Source: Tubiluchus corallicola
Taxonomy: Eukaryota; Animalia; Priapulida
Direction: 5' to 3'
Assembly (NCBI GenBank): GCA_030141605.1
Contig: JAQGDQ010000060.1
Location: 124,001-188,000 of the forward strand
Length of the DNA stretch: 64,000 bases
The position numbers were made by a program, and so were the translations under genes. Shown here piece by piece: positions 1 to 61,105 of this stretch. The notes under the pieces are model-generated. The model was not told the origin of the DNA. It searched no databases and saw only the letters and a program-made list of their open reading frames with translations. How positions within the stretch are numbered: position 1 is the stretch's first letter; every line of letters starts with the position of its first letter.

Positions 1-2857
1 GATAGTGGTAAGGGTACGAGTCCAGAAAGTGAGCGGGATAAGAGTCCCGAAAACAGTGATAAAGGAAAAAGTCCAAACAGTCTAAAAGATCTTACTGAGT
101 TGGATGAGTGTTTAGACGAGAGTAGTAAAAGTCCAACAACTAGCATAGCGAAAGAACTGTGGCTTGGTGCACATTCTCAAGAGCTTGTGAAAATAGCATT
201 TGCAAATGGACAGCAGTCACTCGCCTCATCGCACCTTGCACCATCATCTGACTATGGTGCTCTTGAGTCGGATAAAGTGGGCAGCAGTGAGTCAGCTGGT
301 AAATTTTACCGAACTTTCTTAGAAACGTTGCCCTCGCATGTGAAATTAAAGGGTATGAATAACATGCTTTCTGCCAAGGCAGGAATGGAAAACACGAGTG
401 AAATAACTACAAATTTAGCTCAAGTCACTGGTAAAAATCCGAAGTCGTTTCTAGCACCTTCTGCAGATTATGGCGTATCAAAAACGGCTTTCCAAAATGT
501 TTTCTTTTCGGACAGTTCTGAATCTCGCACGCAGTATGGGAAATCTTTCTCGTCTGTGCCGAGTGTGGGCAGTAGAACAAGACAGTTAGGCAAAAGTGTT
601 AATTCGTCTACCTTGCGAAAGTCACACACTTCGTATAATCAAACTGGTAACGGTTCCTTGTCAATTTGTGCCAACAGCGGTGGAGATAAAGCTGAGAATA
701 CGGGCTACAATAGTAGTGCTAAATCGTGTGGAATTGCTTCAGTAACGACGACAGTACCCCCTAGCAGTAGAGGGCACCTGCCCCCAAGCTCAACAGTTAA
801 TGGTCCAAGTAGTAACAGCTCAACCATATCTGTGACGGAGATGGTTGCTAGCATATTAAACGCATATAGTGTTATGCAGTCCACTGCAGGCAGTGGTACT
901 TCTGTGAGTAGTTCTGCAAGGGACATTTCAAACAGACATCCACCGCCGGCTTCATTAGCACATTTAAATCCAGCCAGTTGTGAAAATGGAGCACATGTTC
1001 ATCCCAAACATCAGGGATCAGTGCTTGCCGATTTGAGAGGGCAGCATTTGGCAGTGGCTTCTAGTGCCGTGTTAACATCTCCGCTTGGCAAATCCTTAAC
1101 TTCTGATGTTGACGCATCTTCTGGTTCAGCAGCAATGCAGACTTCTACCTCAGCCGCGTGTGTATCCAGTACCATTTCACCTCGATCGCGAACAGCCTTT
1201 TCGAAACCTGCGCCGCTTCGGATTCCAAAAGAACAAATAACTGGGCCGACTCAAGTTGCGTCACCTGTTAATTTAGCGTCAAGTTATCTCTTAGCTGCTG
1301 CCAACCTCACCCAATCAGTGCAAGCATCTATGTCTCTAGCATCTTCGAATTTGTTCGGTCCTTTGTCGCCTCCGCTACCTAAGAAAGGTGGCGGCGGTAA
1401 ATCATCTAGTTCACCGAGAGCCAAAAGTGGAAAAACTGGAAACAAGCGGTCGTCGAGTCCTGGCGCAAGTTCACCTCGTGGTTCACATGCTCACCAGTAC
1501 GGAAACGGCACCAGTCCGCGAGCTTTCGCCGATGCGGGAAAATCTAGTGCAACAGTTGTATCTCATTTAGGTAGTATAAATCACGCAACGTCTCTGATTG
1601 ACAACATACCCCTGCCTAGTATTTCTAGTTCTACGCCAACAACCTCTATTACTAGTGGCCATGCATCGGTATTTGCAACATCAAACACGCTGGCAGATGC
1701 ATGTAAAGACACTGGACCTGAAATAACTGTTTGGAGTTATAATCGCTGCGCATCCGAACAGCATTCACACCATCATCGGGTACCTTTCATTGGTGAAAAC
1801 AATATCCTGTGTGGGTCTCAAGATTCTGAAGTATCCGTGTCCAGTTTTGTTCCGAATGCAACTGACCATGACTACACGCCGCAGTCTGGTGACGATCTGA
1901 CAAAGCAAGAGTCTGAGGAAGTGATTTCTACCACGATCGTTGTCATGTCACCTGTGAAAGACGCTGAAGAGTTCCAGATTGACCTAAAAGAAAAGACGGA
2001 GCCGCTCAAGATAGAAATCCCAACAACTTTGAGCGAGTCTCCATCGATAGACCCGGCAGCTGTACCTGCTGAAACTTCCAAATCTACACCAAGTCCATCT
2101 GTACGCAAAACTCGCTCTACTTCAGCGCCATCCGATGTGGTTTCAACAAGCACTGAAACTCCTACTACTAATTCTATCCCATCCCAGGTAAGCACCCCGA
2201 CCGTCACTCCTCGCTCCAGTCCTCGGAGCACAAAGCGAAAACTTGAACCCGAAGAAAAACTGGAAAAAATTCGATTGGTGAGGAAGACCACCGAGAGCGG
2301 ATCCAACGAGCTGGTAGTGAAGCAGGTGTTTAGCAAACCGCCTGAAACGGAGGAAAGAACAAAGATCTCAAAGAGAAAGTGTTCAGAGAATGCGGCAGAA
2401 TTAATCAAAGCCTGCATAGGCTACGATGAAAAACCAAAACCTCTTAAGCGGGCGGACGACTCAGAAGAAGCCAAGTTAAGAGCAGTCCAAGCAAAAGAGA
2501 AAATTTCTGAAGATCAAATTAGCCAACCAGACTCACCCAAGCAGAACGTTCGGCCGCATCGGTCTTGTAGACGTATTTATGCAGCTTCCGAAGCTGAATC
2601 AAGTGATGATGAGATCATCTTGAGTGAGCTTGTGGGTAAAAAATCTGAGCGCAAAAAACGCGGGAGGTCGTCGGACTCTGATCACGTGCCAGTACTGCCA
2701 CTGAAACCGCAACAGCAACAATTTCAGAGCAACAGCAACAAGAGTAGGCCAAAGATTCGGTCGAATTCGGAGTCGAGCGCAGCTTCAGAAACGGGCAAGG
2801 ATGATAAAGTATTGAATCGGAAAGAAATGCCAAAAACTGCAGAGAAAAGTTTGAGAG
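1..2857 (+). CDS. Large exon (5' end outside the window) of a Ser/Thr-rich, low-complexity, probably nuclear protein; family not recognised
   Basis: Frame open from base 1 (DSGKGTSPESERDKSP...) through the 921-aa ORF; ends at donor AGA G|gtttgt (2857/2858, phase 1). Contains basic NLS-like clusters (RSTKRKLE, KKSERKKRGR) and a DHDY tetrapeptide. Confidence 0.85.
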
Positions 2858-3506
2858 GTTTGTGATTTTCCTTTTTTTTTGCTTTGACATGTAACTCAAG
2901 GCAACATTTTTTTTCTTGCTTTACAGGTGTTTTTGAGACGAGATTGCATTTCTAACTGTACTCATTGAACATATGTAGTTAAGTCTGCCTTTGTTGACTA
3001 CTCACACTCAGTAAGTGCAGCAAATGTACTATTTACCGCACTGCCTATCTTACACACTGTAACCCAGAACTTACGTATACAGTCATACCTTGTTATAATG
3101 ACCCCTTCCCCCCCCCCCATAATATCAGCCTCGTTTAATGCCCGATTTTTGGCAAAACACAATGTATCTATTTGCATAGACAATTAGACATATATGTATT
3201 AATTGACCTCGTTATAATTTGCTCAACGCCAACTTTTTTGCATTCATATCTTTTTAAGCTACAGTCAGTCCCCAAGACTTGACAATCATAGCCATTATTA
3301 TTTATCATGCATATGTGGACACTTGTATTATGAATTCTCCATTTTGTAAGCCACTTTAGAAACTTCGTTTACAAATTTTCTAACAAAATGAAAATGAAAA
3401 AATTGAAATATATGTGTACCCTTTTTAAAATTTTACGTAGTGAGTGTGTATTACTTATATAGGTTTTCTAAGTCTTCAAAACGAATTTTCTTTCTTTGTT
3501 TTACAG

Positions 3507-13818: not shown

Positions 13819-13902
13819 CTAGCAGCAACTCCTTGAAGAATGACCGGACGACTGCGATACATCAACTTTCGGGTTATTCGTTGACATATCTCTGAAAGGC
13901 GT
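13819..13902 (-). CDS. Rab10: Rab10 exon 6 (TPFRDMSTNNPKVDVSQSSGHSSRSCC*)
   Basis: ttttgcag acceptor, phase 0, 84 nt, ends in the CC geranylgeranylation motif and TAG. Confidence 0.93.
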   Translation of the reverse strand, partial: TPFRDMSTNNPKVDVSQSSGHSSRSCC

Positions 13903-14849: not shown

Positions 14850-14951
14850 CTTATTTAAAATTGCTTGGGCTAAATCCAGGAAAGCTTTTTCTATGTTGAT
14901 TCCGTCCTTTGCGCTGGTCTCTAAGAACGGAATGCCATGCTCCCGTGCAAT
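14850..14951 (-). CDS. Rab10: Rab10 exon 5 ([34 protein letters not shown])
   Basis: cacag acceptor and AAG|gtgaaa donor; ETSAK (G5) motif; 102 nt. Confidence 0.95.
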
Positions 14952-17808: not shown

Positions 17809-17898
17809 GGCTTCACCTCTCTCCTTGCTGACCATCCTCTTATCCTCCATGTCGCACTTATTACCCAGAATCATCTTCTCAACATCTTCATTAGCATG
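17809..17898 (-). CDS. Rab10: Rab10 exon 4 ([30 protein letters not shown])
   Basis: ttccag acceptor and gtaagt donor; NKCD (G4) motif; 90 nt. Confidence 0.97.
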
Positions 17899-20525: not shown

Positions 20526-20664
20526 CTCGTCTATATTTCGTAGCCATTTGGCAATGTTGTCAAACGTTTTTGGCTGCGTGATGTCATAAACCAACATGAT
20601 TCCCATAGCTCCTCGATAGTAAGATGTGGTGATTGTGTGGAAGCGTTCTTGACCGGCGGTATCC
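20526..20664 (-). CDS. Rab10: Rab10 exon 3 ([47 protein letters not shown])
   Basis: DTAGQ (G3) and Rab10-typical [15 protein letters not shown]; 139 nt; AG/GT boundaries. Confidence 0.98.
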
Positions 20665-21521: not shown

Positions 21522-21582
21522 CATATTTGCAACTTTATCTTCTTTCCATGCAAATCGACAGTCTTTATTTTGAAATCAATTC
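21522..21582 (-). CDS. Rab10: Rab10 exon 2 ([20 protein letters not shown])
   Basis: tttttccag acceptor and TG|gtatgc donor; 61 nt; RabF1/F2 motifs. Confidence 0.97.
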
Positions 21583-30708: not shown

Positions 30709-30835
30709 CTATAGTTTTGGTGAGTGAATTTCTATTGCTAAACGAGTCTGTAGCAAATCTGAATAATGTACTTGTCTTCCCTACTGCAGAGTCACCTAGC
30801 AGCAGTATTTTGAAAACGGGGTAGCAATCTTTCAT
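30709..30835 (-). CDS. Rab10: Duplicated, diverged alternative first coding exon (1b) of Rab10: MKDCYPVFKILLLGDSAVGKTSTLFRFATDSFSNRNSLTKTIG
   Basis: ATG at 30835, 127 nt with no stop, intact P-loop GDSAVGKT, ends ACT ATA G|gtatga in the same phase as exon 1a; ctacag acceptor 3 nt before the ATG. Confidence 0.8.
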
Positions 30836-31678
30836 TATCTGTAGGCAACCGAATGACACCACTGAGACTGAGTATTAGCACAGCCACAATCCATTGCTGT
30901 CTATATACTGATCAGTAATCACAATACTATGTACGATGTATATAATCAAACAACTAATAAAATACCGTATGAAAACTGTCTAATGATATTATATTTATAC
31001 ATGCAAATGATAGTTTAATAAATGTATGTCGTTGTGGTGACATGTTTACAAATGCCAAAGTTTAAACAACATGGTTGGTCATCCAACAAGCAGTATGAAG
31101 CAACCGAGTGATGATTTGTTTGCAAATGATAAAGTCTACCTAAACAGGAATATTTGGGTGATAACAGCATAGCAGTTAGAAATTGGTTTTGCAAAAAAAG
31201 CCACTGACCACTGGCATCTAGTAAATCTGACACTATCGCTGGCACATTCGTAAATTTGCACATTTGCTCTGTGCACTATGTGCTAGTAAACGATACACAG
31301 AGAGTTTATTATCAAGTTTGCATGATTGTAGAAATGAAATTCTCAATTCAGATTAAAGAAAAAAAGTGCTCAAGAAGTCACTTTTCAGCAAATGACATTT
31401 CATGTATCACGACTTATTATAGATAGAACTAAAGTTTGTGAAAAAATGCCACAAACTGCCTTTTTTGTACAAAAGAATATTAAAGTAATATTCTTTAATA
31501 ATATAGCAATATTGCGTAATATTGCTATACTTGATGCGAGTTGGTTAAATTCTCATACGTCTTCTAGAAGACAAGATGACAGGTTAAACCTGACAGCCTG
31601 GTAAAAATAATTAACCATGTATTGTACATTGTTTAACAAAATGAGGTTATAAGTTCATTCCATACATGTGTTATATAT

Positions 31679-31940: not shown

Positions 31941-34000
31941 CATACACTAAAACGTATATACTTTAAAACATGAGAACAAAAGCAAATTGGACATTCAACT
32001 GTGACTCAAGTCTCCAAGTATGAATAACAAAGAGGCCTACCTTCAAATAAATGTATTTGTACAATGGCGGGTGCAGCGTTGGAGTTGCTTGCAACAATTT
32101 CAAGTAGGCGATATGCATGTGACCTTAATCTACTATATGAACGATTTAGTCAACAGGTAAGTGCAAACAAACAAAGAGAAAATTGTCCAGATCACCTAGC
32201 AGGTGCATAACGAGCTGCCATGACTCATGAATATAAACATTTATTGTGCTCACGAATCGAAACTTCTGTAATCATGATGAACTTACAAAAAGTTGGTCTA
32301 ACATTCTGATTGAAATGCTACTTAAGAAGTTCAGATATATACGATTTATTGAATGATTATTAAGCCTGATATTTTCATGTTGCAATGCGTATTTGCAAAG
32401 AAAACCTTCAAATTAGATATTTTCATATCATACAAAATATATGTAGCCTTTTTAGTGGTGAAATTCAAAAAGTACTACTTGTAAAATCTACGAAAAATCT
32501 GAAATTATTTTTATTGATACATTCTCCTTCTTTATGCAGATTTAACTTACAGGACAAAACTTTCAAAAAAAGGTTAGTCTGCCCAGTTATAATAAACTCG
32601 GTTTCCGATGTTCAAGGCGTCATGAAATCTTCGCGAACTTAAAACAATATTTTTACAGCACAGCTACTCAGTTCCATCTGGTAATTCTGGTTAGCTGTGA
32701 ATTAACCACGTGATTCTTGTGGCACGAAAAAAGTAATGTGGGATCACTTACTAAAAAATCAAGTGAGTGATTTTTAAAAATCACCACTAACATAAGTCAT
32801 GCACATTCTTATTTCAACGGTTGACCTTCTATTTTACATCAACTGACTTTTATATTTCATTACGACAACAAAAGTGATGAAAAATCATTTAGTGAATTTG
32901 ACTAATGAGTATGCAATCACCATAGTAGTAGTGAGATAGAGCTTAATGTTTAGCAAAGTGTATGATCGAAGTCTCTTCAAATCACACTGTGTACTGCAGC
33001 TCTGCCTTACTGAAGATCCTAAAATCAAAATCCGATGCTTAAAAGATTTTGCTTGGTGACATACCTAAAATCCTATTGAATGACGGTTGTACTCGATGCA
33101 AATAATAATAATAATGAAGCATGACTGGAATTGATTTCACTGCCAAAGATAATCCTCTTAGACAAAACACGGCTAAACACATTGTCTTTGAGTGAATCTA
33201 GTTCTACTTGCTTTGTCGTCTAGAAAGTAAGCAACCTGGGCAAATTTATGTTAAAGAACAGATGTAATCTTAATCGGCAAACAGCAAAACCAACAACAGG
33301 CTACATAAATATCATCATTATTAAATTTTAGAATTCTAGTAGCTTCCAATGTTACAGGTTTAAGGAATGTTTTCAGGTAGCGCATTGTCATAGACATAGA
33401 AGTGTCAAAAAACTATGAGCAGACATCACCATAAAACACTTTGCCACAAAAATAAATTAATGCAATTACTATGCTTTTAAGGAATAGAGGTCATTTGCAT
33501 CAGGACGAATTGTGTTAGATTAAAGAATTAAAGTTTTCCAATATCGACGTGGCATAACATCATATGCACAATGAGCAATACAGATCATAGAAACAACCAA
33601 ATTATAATGGTAATGTATTAATTTAAAATGTGTATATTACCAATTCAATCCATGACATTTGAGACATCACTTGATATTTAAATTTACCAAGCTATATGGG
33701 TAAATTTTTAACTGCTAACCCACTCGCCTGCATTTTCTACACACTACCTATAAGAAACCTTTCAAGCTAATGTTATAACCACTTAGTCAACAGTACTGTC
33801 TTTTCCGACTGGCCATCATGATTATATTAAATGCAGTTGTTACAATTTCTCTGGATCCACACGCAGACAACACCAGACTTTAATTTAAAAAATACTGGAA
33901 ACCAGAGAAGTACTTCTTATCACTCAGTCACCCAGAGTTTCAAAATTCAAGGCTGCATGATGTTTGTCATAACATGCCGAAAATTCAGAAAATGTCTTAC

Positions 34001-34127
34001 CTATTGTTGAGATAAATGATTTGTTAAATGATTCATCTGAAAATCTAAATAATATACACGTTTTTCCTACTCCGGAGTCCCCAATTAGTAATAATTTGAA
34101 GAGCAAATCATAAGTCTTTTTCGCCAT
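34001..34127 (-). CDS. Rab10: Rab10 canonical exon 1a ([43 protein letters not shown])
   Basis: Rab10 N-terminal signature; donor ATA G|gtaaga; 127 nt. The six exons total 603 nt = 200 aa + stop. Confidence 0.98.
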
Positions 34128-34349
34128 CTTTATTACAGTTCGTGCGATTTACCCACTGGGATCAAAACATGAAACAATCTTCAGTTTTAGCGCTTCAAAT
34201 AAAGGCACAGAATCACAGATGCAAACGTTGCTATATCGCAAATTCTCGCAAAAACCTCAATAATAAAGTGATCCTCCCTTGATGAGTAATTTATCACAAA
34301 ACTATTTGAATTTTTTACATTTTCTACAACGTTCACTCACTCCACTAAT

Positions 34350-42286: not shown

Positions 42287-42485
42287 CACTGGCGAGTCTT
42301 TTGAAACATGGCAAATGCCTTGATAATCTCTGGTTTCAACTTTTACAAAGAGTTTGTGCTCGAAAAGAAGAGATTTGACGACTTCAGCCTCGCGAGCTCC
42401 CAATGTTGGTGAGGCTGTTTCCATCTCTTTATGAAATGCCTCCTGGTCAACAATCACGTAACCTTCATCATCAAATACGTAGCAC
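42287..42485 (-). CDS. Cache-domain gene exon, minimal form (CYVFDDEGYVIVDQEAFHKEMETASPTLGAREAEVVKSLLFEHKLFVKVETRDYQGICHVSKDSPV)
   Basis: tgttctctag acceptor, phase 2, donor GTG|gtatga; C(Y/F).(L/F)DD.G(Y/F) and DYQ..C motifs typical of alpha2delta/CACHD1. Which of the 23 tandem acceptors is used is unknown. Confidence 0.85.
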
Positions 42486-44100
42486 CTAGAGAACAGAGCA
42501 AGAACAAGCTTACAATGGTCAACAATCACGTAACCTTCATCATCAAATACGTAGCACCTAGAGAACAGAGCAAGAACAAGCTTACAATGGTCAACAATCA
42601 CGTAACCTTCATCATCAAATACGTAGCACCTAGAGAACAGAGCAAGAACAAGCTTACAATGGTCAACAATCACGTAACCTTCATCATCAAATACATAGCA
42701 CCTAGAGAACAGAGCAAGAACAAGCTTACAATGGTCAACAATCACATAACCTTCATCATCAAATACGTAGCACCTAGAGAACAGAACAAGAACAAGCTTA
42801 CAATGGTCAACAATCACATAACCTTCATCATCAAATACGTAGCACCTAGAGAACAGAACAAGAACAAGCTTACAATGGTCAACAATCACATAACCTTCAT
42901 CATCAAATACGTAGCACCTAGAGAACAGAACAAGAACAAGCTTACAATGGTCAACAATCACATAACCTTCATCATCAAATACGTAGCACCTAGAGAACAG
43001 AGCAAGAACAAGCTTACAATGGTCAACAATCACATAACCTTCATCATCAAATACGTAGCACCTAGAGAACAGAACAAGAACAAGCTTACAATGGTCAACA
43101 ATCACGTAACCTTCATCATCAAATACGTAGCACCTAGAGAACAGAACAAGAACAAGCTTACAATGGTCAACAATCACGTAACCTTCATCATCAAATACGT
43201 AGCACCTAGAGAACAGAGCAAGAACAAGCTTACAATGGTCAACAATCACATAACCTTCATCATCAAATACGTAGCACCTAGAGAACAGAGCAAGAACAAG
43301 CTTACAATGGTCAACAATCACGTAACCTTCATCATCAAATACGTAGCACCTAGAGAACAGAGCAAGAACAAGCTTACAATGGTCAACAATCACATAACCT
43401 TCATCATCAAATACGTAGCACCTAGAGAACAGAACAAGAACGAGCTTACAATGGTCAACAATCACATAACCTTCATCATCAAATACGTAGCACCTAGAGA
43501 ACAGAACAAGAACAAGCTTACAATGGTCAACAATCACATAACCTTCATCATCAAATACGTAGCACCTAGAGAACAGAACAAGAACAAGCTTACAATGGTC
43601 AACAATCACATAACCTTCATCATCAAATACGTAGCACCTAGAGAACAGAACAAGAACAAGCTTACAATGGTCAACAATCACATAACCTTCATCATCAAAT
43701 ACGTAGCACCTAGAGAACAGAACAAGAACAAGCTTACAATGGTCAACAATCACATAACCTTCATCATCAAATACGTAGCACCTAGAGAACAGAACAAGAA
43801 CAAGCTTACAATGGTCAACAATCACATAACCTTCATCATCAAATACATAGCACCTAGAGAACAGAGCAAGAACAAGCTTACAATGGTCAACAATCACATA
43901 ACCTTCATCATCAAATACGTAGCACCTAGAGAACAGAGCAAGAACAAGCTTACAATGGTCAACAATCACATAACCTTCATCATCAAATACGTAGCACCTA
44001 GAGAACAGAACAAGAACAAGCTTACAATGGTCAACAATCACGTAACCTTCATCATCAAATACGTAGCACCTAGAGAACAGAGCAAGAACAAGCTTACAAT
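42444..44100 (-). repeat. 72-bp tandem array x23; each unit = polypyrimidine tract + AG acceptor + start of the exon
   Basis: Unit (minus strand) ccattgtaagcttgttcttgctctgttctctag|GTGCTACGTATTTGATGATGAAGGTTACGTGATTGTTGA; acceptors every 72 nt from 44070 to 42486. Confidence 0.98.
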
Positions 44101-58049: not shown

Positions 58050-58795
58050 AACCAGGTAATAAAGTCATAGGTAAAAAAGTCACAGGTACAGTACAAGAGT
58101 CACAGGTACAAAAGTCACAGGTACAAGAGTCATGGGTACAAGAGTCACGGGTACAAGAGTCACGGGTACAAAAGTCACAGGTACAAAAATCACTGGTACA
58201 AGAGTCACAGGTACAAAAGTTGCAAAAAAGTCCCAGGAAAAACGGCATAGGAAAAAAGAAATAACCCTAACCCTAACTTTAACCCTAACCCTAACCTTAA
58301 CCGTAACCCTAACCCAAACTTTGCATGTTGCTAGTACAGAGGAACTCGAAGAATGACTAACAAACCTATACCAAACAACAACATTACCTTTTAATATAAA
58401 TAACTTTGACCCAAAATTAAAAAAATTCAGTTTTTCTTTCTGAGGGGAAACAATATATTCATTGTTCAATAAAAAGACTTATAATAATAATTTCTGGTAG
58501 TTCTTTACTAACATCATCATATTTGACCTAGTACAGCAATATATTGGTTTTAATTACCTTAATTAGCAATTAGAATAGCTAGGTATACTTTGTGATGGGC
58601 TTGTTGTTTCTGTTAAACTGCACTCCTGTAAATTTTGCAGCCTGAGGCAACTTGATCAGCATTTATTTGCTTTTTGGCAAAGGCAACTATTTCAAATAAA
58701 TGTTTATGAAAAACTCTAATCCAAGCCACAATTAATTGTGACTTTCTTCTAACTAAAATTGTGGCTTTTTTCCGTGACTTTTTTATCGGTCACTG
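58050..58795. mobile_element. Non-autonomous element with internal 15-bp (gtcacaggtacaaaa) and (taaccc)n tracts; shorter relative at ~49550-49779
   Basis: Both copies share aaaaagtcac..ggaaaaaagaaataac.ctaaccctaac ... aaaattgtg.ctttt..gtga.ttt.ttatcg.tcac.g; Helitron/Helentron-like organisation is an inference. Confidence 0.6.
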
Positions 58796-60331: not shown

Positions 60332-60475
60332 CATGTATCTGCCGGAATCGCTTAACGTGCAATTGCCAGTCCTTCCAGACATCATTTCTTCCTGAATTTT
60401 TGCAAATTCTGGTGGACTTCCAGCAACGTCTTGCTCCAGCTGATTAATCCGTACAAAAAACGGATCGTCCACCAA
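60332..60475 (-). CDS. Cache-domain gene exon (LVDDPFFVRINQLEQDVAGSPPEFAKIQEEMMSGRTGNCTLSDSGRYM)
   Basis: atttttag acceptor; donor ATG|gtacag (exact 3' end less sure); phase 0. Confidence 0.82.
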
Positions 60476-60600
60476 CTAAAAATATGAAATAAAATCGTAC
60501 TGTTACACTTGTAGCAAAAAAGAGTAATGCCCTGCAAAATAAAGGTTTTATGCGAAGTTATGATTAGAAGTACATAGTGAAATACATGATAATAACAAAC

Positions 60601-60745
60601 CTCACTACTAGGTTTTAGCAATGGATGAAAATAAGTGTCCCCTTCACCATCAATCATAAAAGCCGATACGCCTCCCCACTTCTGCTTTTCGATGAAAGTG
60701 ACGATGTCATCCAATGTGACATCTATGCCAGAGACACCTATTGTA
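60601..60745 (-). CDS. Cache-domain gene exon (TIGVSGIDVTLDDIVTFIEKQKWGGVSAFMIDGEGDTYFHPLLKPSSE)
   Basis: cttttcag acceptor and GAG|gtttgt donor; GV.GIDV and AF.ID..G....HP dCache_1 motifs. Confidence 0.93.
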
Positions 60746-61105
60746 CTGAAAAGAATACTCGGTTATTCGCAAACTCACTTTCCTCCGTCTACTTTCTTTA
60801 ATGCGTAATTTAAACTAATATCTTCCATCACAATACTGTTTTTAACTCTGTGTTACCATATCTATCTGTATCTATTTCTTTGCTCATGCTTTCAATGTTT
60901 TTTCATGCTCTTTCTTGCAATGATTTCACTTGATCAGAATTTCTTTTACTTGTCTATATTGCCTGTATTAAATAATAATAATATTTTTCTGTTGACTGTG
61001 TGAAATAAATATTTTCAAATAACTTCACTTCTACAGAATTTTTTTTAGCTTGTATTAAATAATTTTCAAAATGATTTTACTTTTGTTTTCCTCGTAACAT
61101 ATTAA

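What the first reader, a model, noticed from the sequence alone, without database searches (positions are those of the whole stretch)
30709..30840. Second, diverged first exon gives Rab10 a swappable P-loop/switch-I module
Seen: 3.2 kb inside intron 1 lies a paralog of coding exon 1 with the same length (127 nt), its own ATG, no stops, the same phase-1 donor after TIG, and roughly half the residues identical. The GTP-binding core is kept (FK.LL.GDS.VGKT..LFRF...SF). The effector region is rewritten: [10 protein letters not shown] becomes FSNRNSLTKTIG (2-aa insertion, loss of the aromatic residue), and the P-loop reads GDSAVGKTS. Established: switch I helps set GEF/GAP/effector specificity, and Rab6A/A' is a precedent for exon duplication changing Rab effector binding. 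Including both exons hits a stop within 1b, so they must be mutually exclusive. Inference: one locus encodes canonical Rab10 plus a 200-aa chimeric Rab with the same switch II and membrane tail but a new effector face. I do not know of this arrangement for Rab10.
Basis: partly seen in the sequence, partly recalled or inferred. Interest (0 to 1): 0.85.

Follow-up and report, generated by a model that had tools for sequence, protein, structure and literature searches.

The report
Alternative N-terminal exon in invertebrate Rab10
An invertebrate's Rab10 membrane-traffic gene carries an old, intact second copy of the exon for its nucleotide-binding loop and first switch, which likely makes a second Rab10 form with altered partner binding; a sea-star Rab10 record and human RAB37 show the same kind of swap, but no RNA using this copy has been seen.

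Summary
Exon 1b (30835-30709, minus strand) is a 127-nt paralog of Rab10 exon 1a with an ATG, no stop and a phase-1 GT donor. Joined to exons 2-6 it would give 200 aa. It is old and was under purifying selection: flanks do not align, dS is about 1.9, dN 0.27, omega 0.15, and neutral decay fits poorly. P-loop, F34 and T41 are kept; the N-terminus and switch-I loop are rewritten. No RNA test of 1b was possible.

The arrangement is not unique. RefSeq Patiria miniata Rab10 isoform X1 swaps the same module, and human RAB37 is a published case (PMC8373072). Whether the sea-star exon is orthologous to 1b is unresolved. This scan noted similar swaps in SAR1 and Rab3 of other genomes, none in Rab10.

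Two claims were overstated. The core effector triad is shared, not new. Exclusion of both exons is not forced by frame at every acceptor.

Verdict: likely a functional alternative N-terminal exon (0.7), a new member of a known kind; interest 0.45.

The parts
34001..34127 (-). Rab10 coding exon 1a (canonical beta1, P-loop, alpha1, switch I); 5' UTR runs upstream to about 34342
   Evidence: matches spliced protein P0003 at 42 of 42 residues; contigs of run X2 cover 34011-34342
30709..30835 (-). Exon 1b: diverged paralog of exon 1a, ATG to phase-1 GT donor, open frame
30839..30860 (-). Acceptor-like sequence ending in CAG, 3 nt upstream of the 1b ATG, in phase 0 with 1b; use unknown
   Evidence: pyrimidine share 0.65, within the 0.47-0.82 range of the gene's five real acceptors
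21522..21582 (-). Rab10 exon 2 (61 nt; RabF1, interswitch), shared
20526..20664 (-). Rab10 exon 3 (139 nt; G3, switch II), shared
   Evidence: an X2 contig runs from exon 3 into exon-4 sequence
17809..17898 (-). Rab10 exon 4 (90 nt; NKxD), shared
14850..14951 (-). Rab10 exon 5 (102 nt; SAK), shared
13819..13902 (-). Rab10 exon 6 (84 nt; hypervariable tail, terminal CC, stop), shared

Best explanation
Exon 1b is an old tandem duplicate of Rab10 exon 1, kept intact under purifying selection, and it likely serves as an alternative N-terminal exon that would be spliced to the shared exons 2-6 in place of 1a. The choice is likely made by a second promoter, either directly upstream or through a leader exon using the AG 3 nt before the ATG (inferred). 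The product would be a roughly 200-aa Rab10b that is predicted to still bind Mg-GTP (G1 motif, F34 and T41 kept). It keeps the same interswitch, switch II, aromatic triad and CC tail (shown by the exon map). Its N-terminus, RabSF1/RabSF2 and switch-I loop differ (two extra residues, F38L, I39T, S40K). It would therefore likely sit on the same membranes but have changed nucleotide exchange and GEF response, and bind bMERB-type effectors (MICAL/EHBP1) less well (inferred), probably in a restricted tissue or stage (inferred by analogy with RAB37).
For: Age and selection: 400-nt flanks do not align (163 of 300 and 32 of 300 shuffles reach the observed score). Over 34 codons pS is 0.69 and pN 0.23 (dS about 1.9, dN 0.27, Fisher p 4e-5); 10 of 20 identical-residue codons differ silently. 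A codon model on 31 codons gives omega 0.148 and rejects omega 1 (p 3e-4) and omega 0.5 (p 0.025). In simulation, a neutral 1b matches both pS and pN in at most 23 of 2000 runs with equal branches, or 131-160 of 2000 if the 1a branch is made 3-7 times longer. With frame, six key residues, ATG and GT also intact it matches in 0-1 of 2000. Selected models give 208-840 and 4-58 of 2000. K11, L13, L14, G16, D17, V20, G21, K22, R28, F29, F34 and T41 are invariant across 8 aligned sequences. The window has one set of exons 2-6. The 1b donor scores 2.3, within the 1.8-4.9 range of the gene's own donors. Patiria miniata Rab10 isoforms X1 and X3 share the last 163 residues and differ in this module. 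Human RAB37 swaps the same module, with proteomics support and an event dated to Bilateria (PMC8373072 passages and supplement rows). Of six Rab10 RabSF1/2 residues named as MICAL contacts (PMC5026484), 4 or 5 change in 1b, depending on how the N-terminus is aligned.
Against: Splicing of 1b is untested here, and dN/dS shows past selection, not present use. Several 1b residues are rare among 114 Rab N-terminal segments held: I25T 1, D31T 3, F38L 2, I39T 2, S40K 1; a spacer two or more residues longer occurs in 2 of 113 (a biased set of search hits). This fits new function or recent relaxation equally. There is no CpG-rich promoter upstream of 1b (o/e 0.42, against 1.51 for 1a), and a 19-codon upstream frame ends on its ATG. 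The donor ranks 29 of 871 GT sites in the intron by a rough matrix. The sea-star exon is not shown to be orthologous: it scores 49.3 bits against 1a and 35.8 against 1b. The simulation and codon model rest on 31-34 codons near saturation, with my own rate assumptions.
Confidence: 0.7

Rival explanations
1. 1b was once a functional alternative exon but has recently fallen out of use and is starting to decay.
For: The rare substitutions cluster in alpha1 and switch I. There is no CpG-rich promoter and there is an overlapping upstream frame. Past selection cannot date a loss.
Against: ATG, frame, donor, G1 motif, F34 and T41 are all intact. The sea-star alternative exon is at least as diverged from its canonical partner (14 of 25 core residues, against 17 of 25 for 1a/1b) and is annotated as an isoform.
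Confidence: 0.17
2. 1b is used as an internal cassette after 1a through the AG at 30838, giving a frameshift and early stop that would tune Rab10 level by nonsense-mediated decay.
For: An acceptor-like CAG lies 3 nt upstream of the ATG, and 1a plus this 130-nt exon stops at codon 58.
Against: A poison exon needs no protein-level constraint, yet selection acted on the Rab reading frame, and that is not the frame read after 1a.
Confidence: 0.05
3. 1b is the left-over first exon of another Rab8/10-family gene rather than a part of this gene.
For: Its best PDB matches are Rab8A and Rab10 with nearly equal scores, and it has 19 of 25 core identities with five other Rab cores against 17 of 25 with 1a.
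Against: No second set of downstream exons lies in the window. 1b has the same strand and phase as 1a and shares S33 and S37 with it, a pair seen in 8 of 127 canonical exon-1 peptides held.
Confidence: 0.05
4. 1b is a dead duplicate that has drifted neutrally since it arose.
For: If the 1a branch ran 3-7 times faster at silent sites, neutral runs match pS and pN in 131-160 of 2000.
Against: With frame, key residues, ATG and donor also required, 0-1 of 2000 neutral runs match. Omega 0.5 is rejected at p 0.025. The flanks have lost all similarity while codon position 2 is 28 of 34 identical.
Confidence: 0.03

Closest known systems
Patiria miniata Rab10-like isoforms X1 (XP_038057650.1, 250 aa) and X3 (XP_038057652.1, 202 aa), database records
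   Same: Same gene family and same swap: an alternative beta1/P-loop/alpha1/switch-I module joined to an identical remainder from the exon 1/2 boundary; G19 replaced and C24 to Ser in both alternative forms.
   Different: The sea-star form has a leader of about 50 residues, keeps the aromatic residue and normal spacing in switch I, and is not shown to be orthologous to 1b (14 of 25 core identities; closer to 1a by tblastn score). Its genomic layout and RNA support were not checked here.
Human RAB37 tandem exon duplication-derived substitution (PMC8373072; passages and supplement rows seen)
   Same: A duplicated exon covering the P-loop and switch I of a Rab, used one at a time, with differing residues forming a surface patch thought to change partners.
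   Different: In RAB37 the duplicated exon is internal (37 aa) and includes the first RabF1 residues. It has proteomics support and is traced to Bilateria. RAB10 is not in that human list (0 hits in its supplement).
RAB6A/RAB6A' (supplement rows of PMC8373072)
   Same: Exon duplication gives two Rab forms from one locus.
   Different: Strict internal mutually exclusive exons around G3/switch II with 3 residue differences; not the P-loop/switch-I module.

Membership tests
Tandem exon duplication-derived substitution (PMC8373072) | Two homologous exons in tandem within one gene | tested here: met
Tandem exon duplication-derived substitution (PMC8373072) | Each copy joins the shared downstream exons in frame | tested here: inconclusive
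   1a form matches spliced protein P0003 at 199 of 200 residues; the 1b form is open on paper only
Tandem exon duplication-derived substitution (PMC8373072) | Both copies appear in transcripts, one at a time | not testable with these tools
   Only two contig-level runs were offered; no raw reads
Tandem exon duplication-derived substitution (PMC8373072) | The alternative copy is under protein-level constraint | tested here: met
   omega 0.15; neutral models fit poorly
Tandem exon duplication-derived substitution (PMC8373072) | The same exon pair is conserved in other species | tested here: inconclusive
   Same swap in Patiria Rab10, orthology unresolved; weak leads in Mya and P0169
Strict mutually exclusive internal exons | Both exons internal, chosen by splicing and not by promoter | tested here: not met
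   1a holds the start codon and is continuous with its 5' UTR
Rab10 (host gene) | Closer to Rab10 than to Rab8 over the full length | tested here: met
   337 bits to Rab10 against 289 to Rab8A in PDB sequences
Nucleotide-binding Rab (1b form) | G1 GxxxxGK[ST], guanine-stacking Phe and switch-I Thr present (motif roles recalled) | tested here: met
Rab8-family bMERB-binding determinants (1b form) | RabSF1/RabSF2 contacts Y6, D7, L9, K11, D31, S40 | tested here: not met
   K11 kept; 4 or 5 of 6 changed by sequence comparison; binding not assayed

The most novel reading that the evidence does not exclude
Rab10 (and perhaps Rab8) carries an ancient, unreported second N-terminal exon across invertebrate bilaterians: this animal, a sea star, possibly a clam and an unnamed metagenomic sequence. 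It makes a Rab10b with a non-Gly19/Ser24 P-loop and a rewired switch I that escapes MICAL/EHBP1-type effectors, and vertebrates lost it.
Probability: 0.25. Interest if true: 0.7.

Novelty: new member of a known kind. Interest (0 to 1): 0.45.

Why it matters
Rab10 is a highly conserved trafficking GTPase and an LRRK2 substrate (listing of PMC5695910). A natural variant that keeps switch II and the tail but replaces the N-terminus, P-loop and switch I is a ready-made test of how much partner choice those parts carry. With RAB37 and the sea-star record, it suggests this module is repeatedly duplicated as a unit in Rab genes. It is a further case of a known mechanism, not a new one.

Tried and rejected
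RNA: no RNA holder was listed on record. Contigs of run X2 (RNA by guess, 13 million letters) cover 1a and its UTR and run from exon 3 into exon 4, but none lay on 1b or on exon 2. Run X1 has no cover at 30714-31315. These blanks say nothing about expression.

Own genome: none held, so no search of the rest of the genome or of relatives was possible.

Protein searches with 1b: longer proteins gave 8 candidates, none at E 0.001; near-length proteins gave no candidate; the read-through frame is not in the collection; the 50%-cluster library gave 63 hits, none an evident 1b-type full isoform; the Atlas gave generic Ras clusters only. All are weak negatives. The metagenome scan gave 80 loci with 42-68% identity in the best segment, no close relative, and it stopped at 28 of 64 parts.

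Leader exon: no homolog of the Patiria, Mya or P0169 leaders in the window (best E 0.07), and only one short phase-0 candidate with a strong donor, ending at 32041; not accepted. Promoter motifs near 1b (TATA-like at 30907, initiator-like at 30871 and 30856) occur at 1.2 and 1.75 per kb by chance; not used. P0169 as a 1b ortholog: its 19 of 25 identities tie with four ordinary Rab cores among 147, and it was found by searching with 1b; a lead only. The 34-codon free codon model ran to saturation, so only the 31-codon fit is quoted. The taxon was not identified: identity to seven named Rab10s is 109-115 of 131. A fold of the Patiria X1 protein was submitted but had not finished at six collecting calls; no structure result is used.

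Literature: four searches for a Rab10 alternative or duplicated first exon found no describing paper, nor did two on chimeric chordate Rabs, one on Rab8/Rab6A splicing or one on Rab26/Rab37 isoforms; only listings were seen for these. The library lacks most subscription papers.

Full report
Observation. The window holds a six-exon Rab10 gene on the minus strand: exon 1a 34127-34001, 2 21582-21522, 3 20664-20526, 4 17898-17809, 5 14951-14850 and 6 13902-13819. Its translation matches a 200-aa protein from a public assembly (P0003) at 199 of 200 residues, and that protein scores 337 bits to Rab10 against 289 to Rab8A. Exon 1b lies at 30835-30709, 3165 nt into intron 1. It is 127 nt from ATG to a phase-1 GT donor, has no stop, and is 55% identical to 1a. 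It passes the Pfam Ras cut-off and is the only extra Rab-like piece among 3416 six-frame pieces; there is no second set of exons 2-6. Joined to exons 2-6 it would give 200 aa. The organism is an unidentified animal; earlier scan notes on the same genome call it an invertebrate, which I did not test.

Age and selection. The 400-nt flanks of 1a and 1b align no better than shuffles (163 of 300 and 32 of 300 reach the score). Within the exon, codon positions 1, 2 and 3 are identical at 23, 28 and 16 of 34 codons; pS is 0.69 and pN 0.23 (Fisher p 4e-5). A codon model on the 31 unambiguous codons gives omega 0.148 and rejects omega 1 (p 3e-4) and omega 0.5 (p 0.025), the rough expectation if 1a were frozen and 1b neutral. 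In simulation a neutral 1b reproduces both rates in at most 23 of 2000 runs with equal branches, or 131-160 of 2000 with a 3-7 times longer 1a branch. With an open frame, six key residues, ATG and GT also required, it does so in 0-1 of 2000. Selected models give 208-840 and 4-58 of 2000. The sample is small and near saturation, and it shows past constraint only.

What changes in the protein. The G1 motif, F34 and T41 are kept (their roles in phosphate, guanine and Mg binding are recalled). G19A, C24S and S30A are common in other Rabs (13, 39 and 25 of 114 segments held). I25T, D31T, F38L, I39T, S40K and the two-residue longer loop are rare (1, 3, 2, 2 and 1 of 114; 2 of 113). Passages of PMC5026484 name the aromatic triad and hydrophobic pocket used in Rab-effector complexes; here these lie in the shared exons 2-3. 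The same paper names Y6, D7, L9, K11, D31 and S40 of Rab10 and the N-terminal lysines as MICAL contacts that set specificity; 4 or 5 of those six change in 1b. So the swap would retune specificity and probably exchange, on an unchanged core interface (inference).

How it would be chosen. 1a is a first exon continuous with its UTR. 1b has its own ATG with A at -3, but also an acceptor-like CAG 3 nt upstream in phase 0, low CpG, and a 19-codon upstream frame ending on its ATG. Either a second promoter or a leader exon could feed it; no leader was identified. Splicing 1a into 1b stops early at 8 of 10 candidate AGs, but is open at 2, so frame alone does not force exclusion.

Other species. Looking up 9 Rab10 clusters showed that Patiria miniata has RefSeq isoform X1 (250 aa) beside X3 (202 aa). 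They share the last 163 residues and differ in exactly this module. It was the only non-canonical N-terminus among 53 held proteins with a Rab8/10 exon-2 sequence. Orthology to 1b is open: 14 of 25 core identities with 1b and 13 with 1a, but 49.3 bits to 1a against 35.8 to 1b. 1b shares S33 and S37 with its own 1a, a pair seen in 8 of 127 canonical peptides held, which leans weakly to a local duplication. A Mya arenaria Rab8A-like gene model has a second P-loop stretch with the same Ala19/Ser24. An unnamed 61-aa frame (P0169) shares Ala19, Ser24, Ala30 and Thr31 and ends like a phase-1 exon, but its identity ties with four ordinary Rab cores among 147. Both are unverified leads.

What is known. 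PMC8373072 (passages and supplement rows seen) catalogues tandem exon duplication-derived substitutions, including those made by alternative promoters. Its Rab entries are RAB28, RAB6A and RAB37. The RAB37 exons cover the P-loop and switch I, have proteomics support, and are dated to Bilateria. A bird gene model among my hits shows both RAB37-type copies (P0166; the RAB37 label is my match to the supplement rows). PMC9714508 (passages) reports tissue-restricted RAB37 transcripts with different N-termini. PMC3504004 (passages) had nothing relevant. No paper describing this for Rab10 was found. Earlier scan notes report similar swaps in SAR1 and Rab3 of other genomes, and none for this sequence.

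Verdict. The feature is real and most likely a working alternative N-terminal exon of Rab10 (0.7), with recent loss of use the main rival (0.17). It works like the RAB37 switch and has a database counterpart in sea-star Rab10. It is a new member of a known kind, apparently undescribed in print for Rab10. Expression was not testable here. Interest 0.45.

Noticed in passing
window 42444-44100 (-): 23 near-perfect copies (98%) of a 72-nt unit that holds an acceptor-like sequence plus the start of an exon, open in frame for 609 codons. The gene looks like an alpha-2/delta or Cache-domain type (label recalled; weak dCache_1 hit, E 0.03, at 60385-60762). It could offer many alternative acceptors or be an assembly-prone minisatellite.
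   Followed up: no
window 1-2865 (+): A 954-codon Ser/Thr-rich open frame running off the window start, with no Pfam match.
   Followed up: partly
P0002 (Mya arenaria WAR29638.1): A Rab8A-like gene model with a canonical exon-1 peptide followed by a second diverged P-loop stretch; a possible parallel alternative exon in Rab8.
   Followed up: partly
P0001 (Toxocara canis KHN76400.1): A Rab8B model with two identical copies of the exon-1 core peptide; a recent duplication or an assembly artefact.
   Followed up: no
P0169 (unnamed ENA contig, 518 nt): A 61-aa frame that looks like a diverged Rab8/10 exon 1 and shares four of 1b's substitutions.
   Followed up: partly
window 58262-58319: About 10 copies of TAACCC, an interstitial telomere-type repeat.
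   Followed up: no
window 30894-30835 (-): A 19-codon upstream frame whose stop overlaps the 1b ATG; it could dampen or couple translation if transcribed.
   Followed up: no
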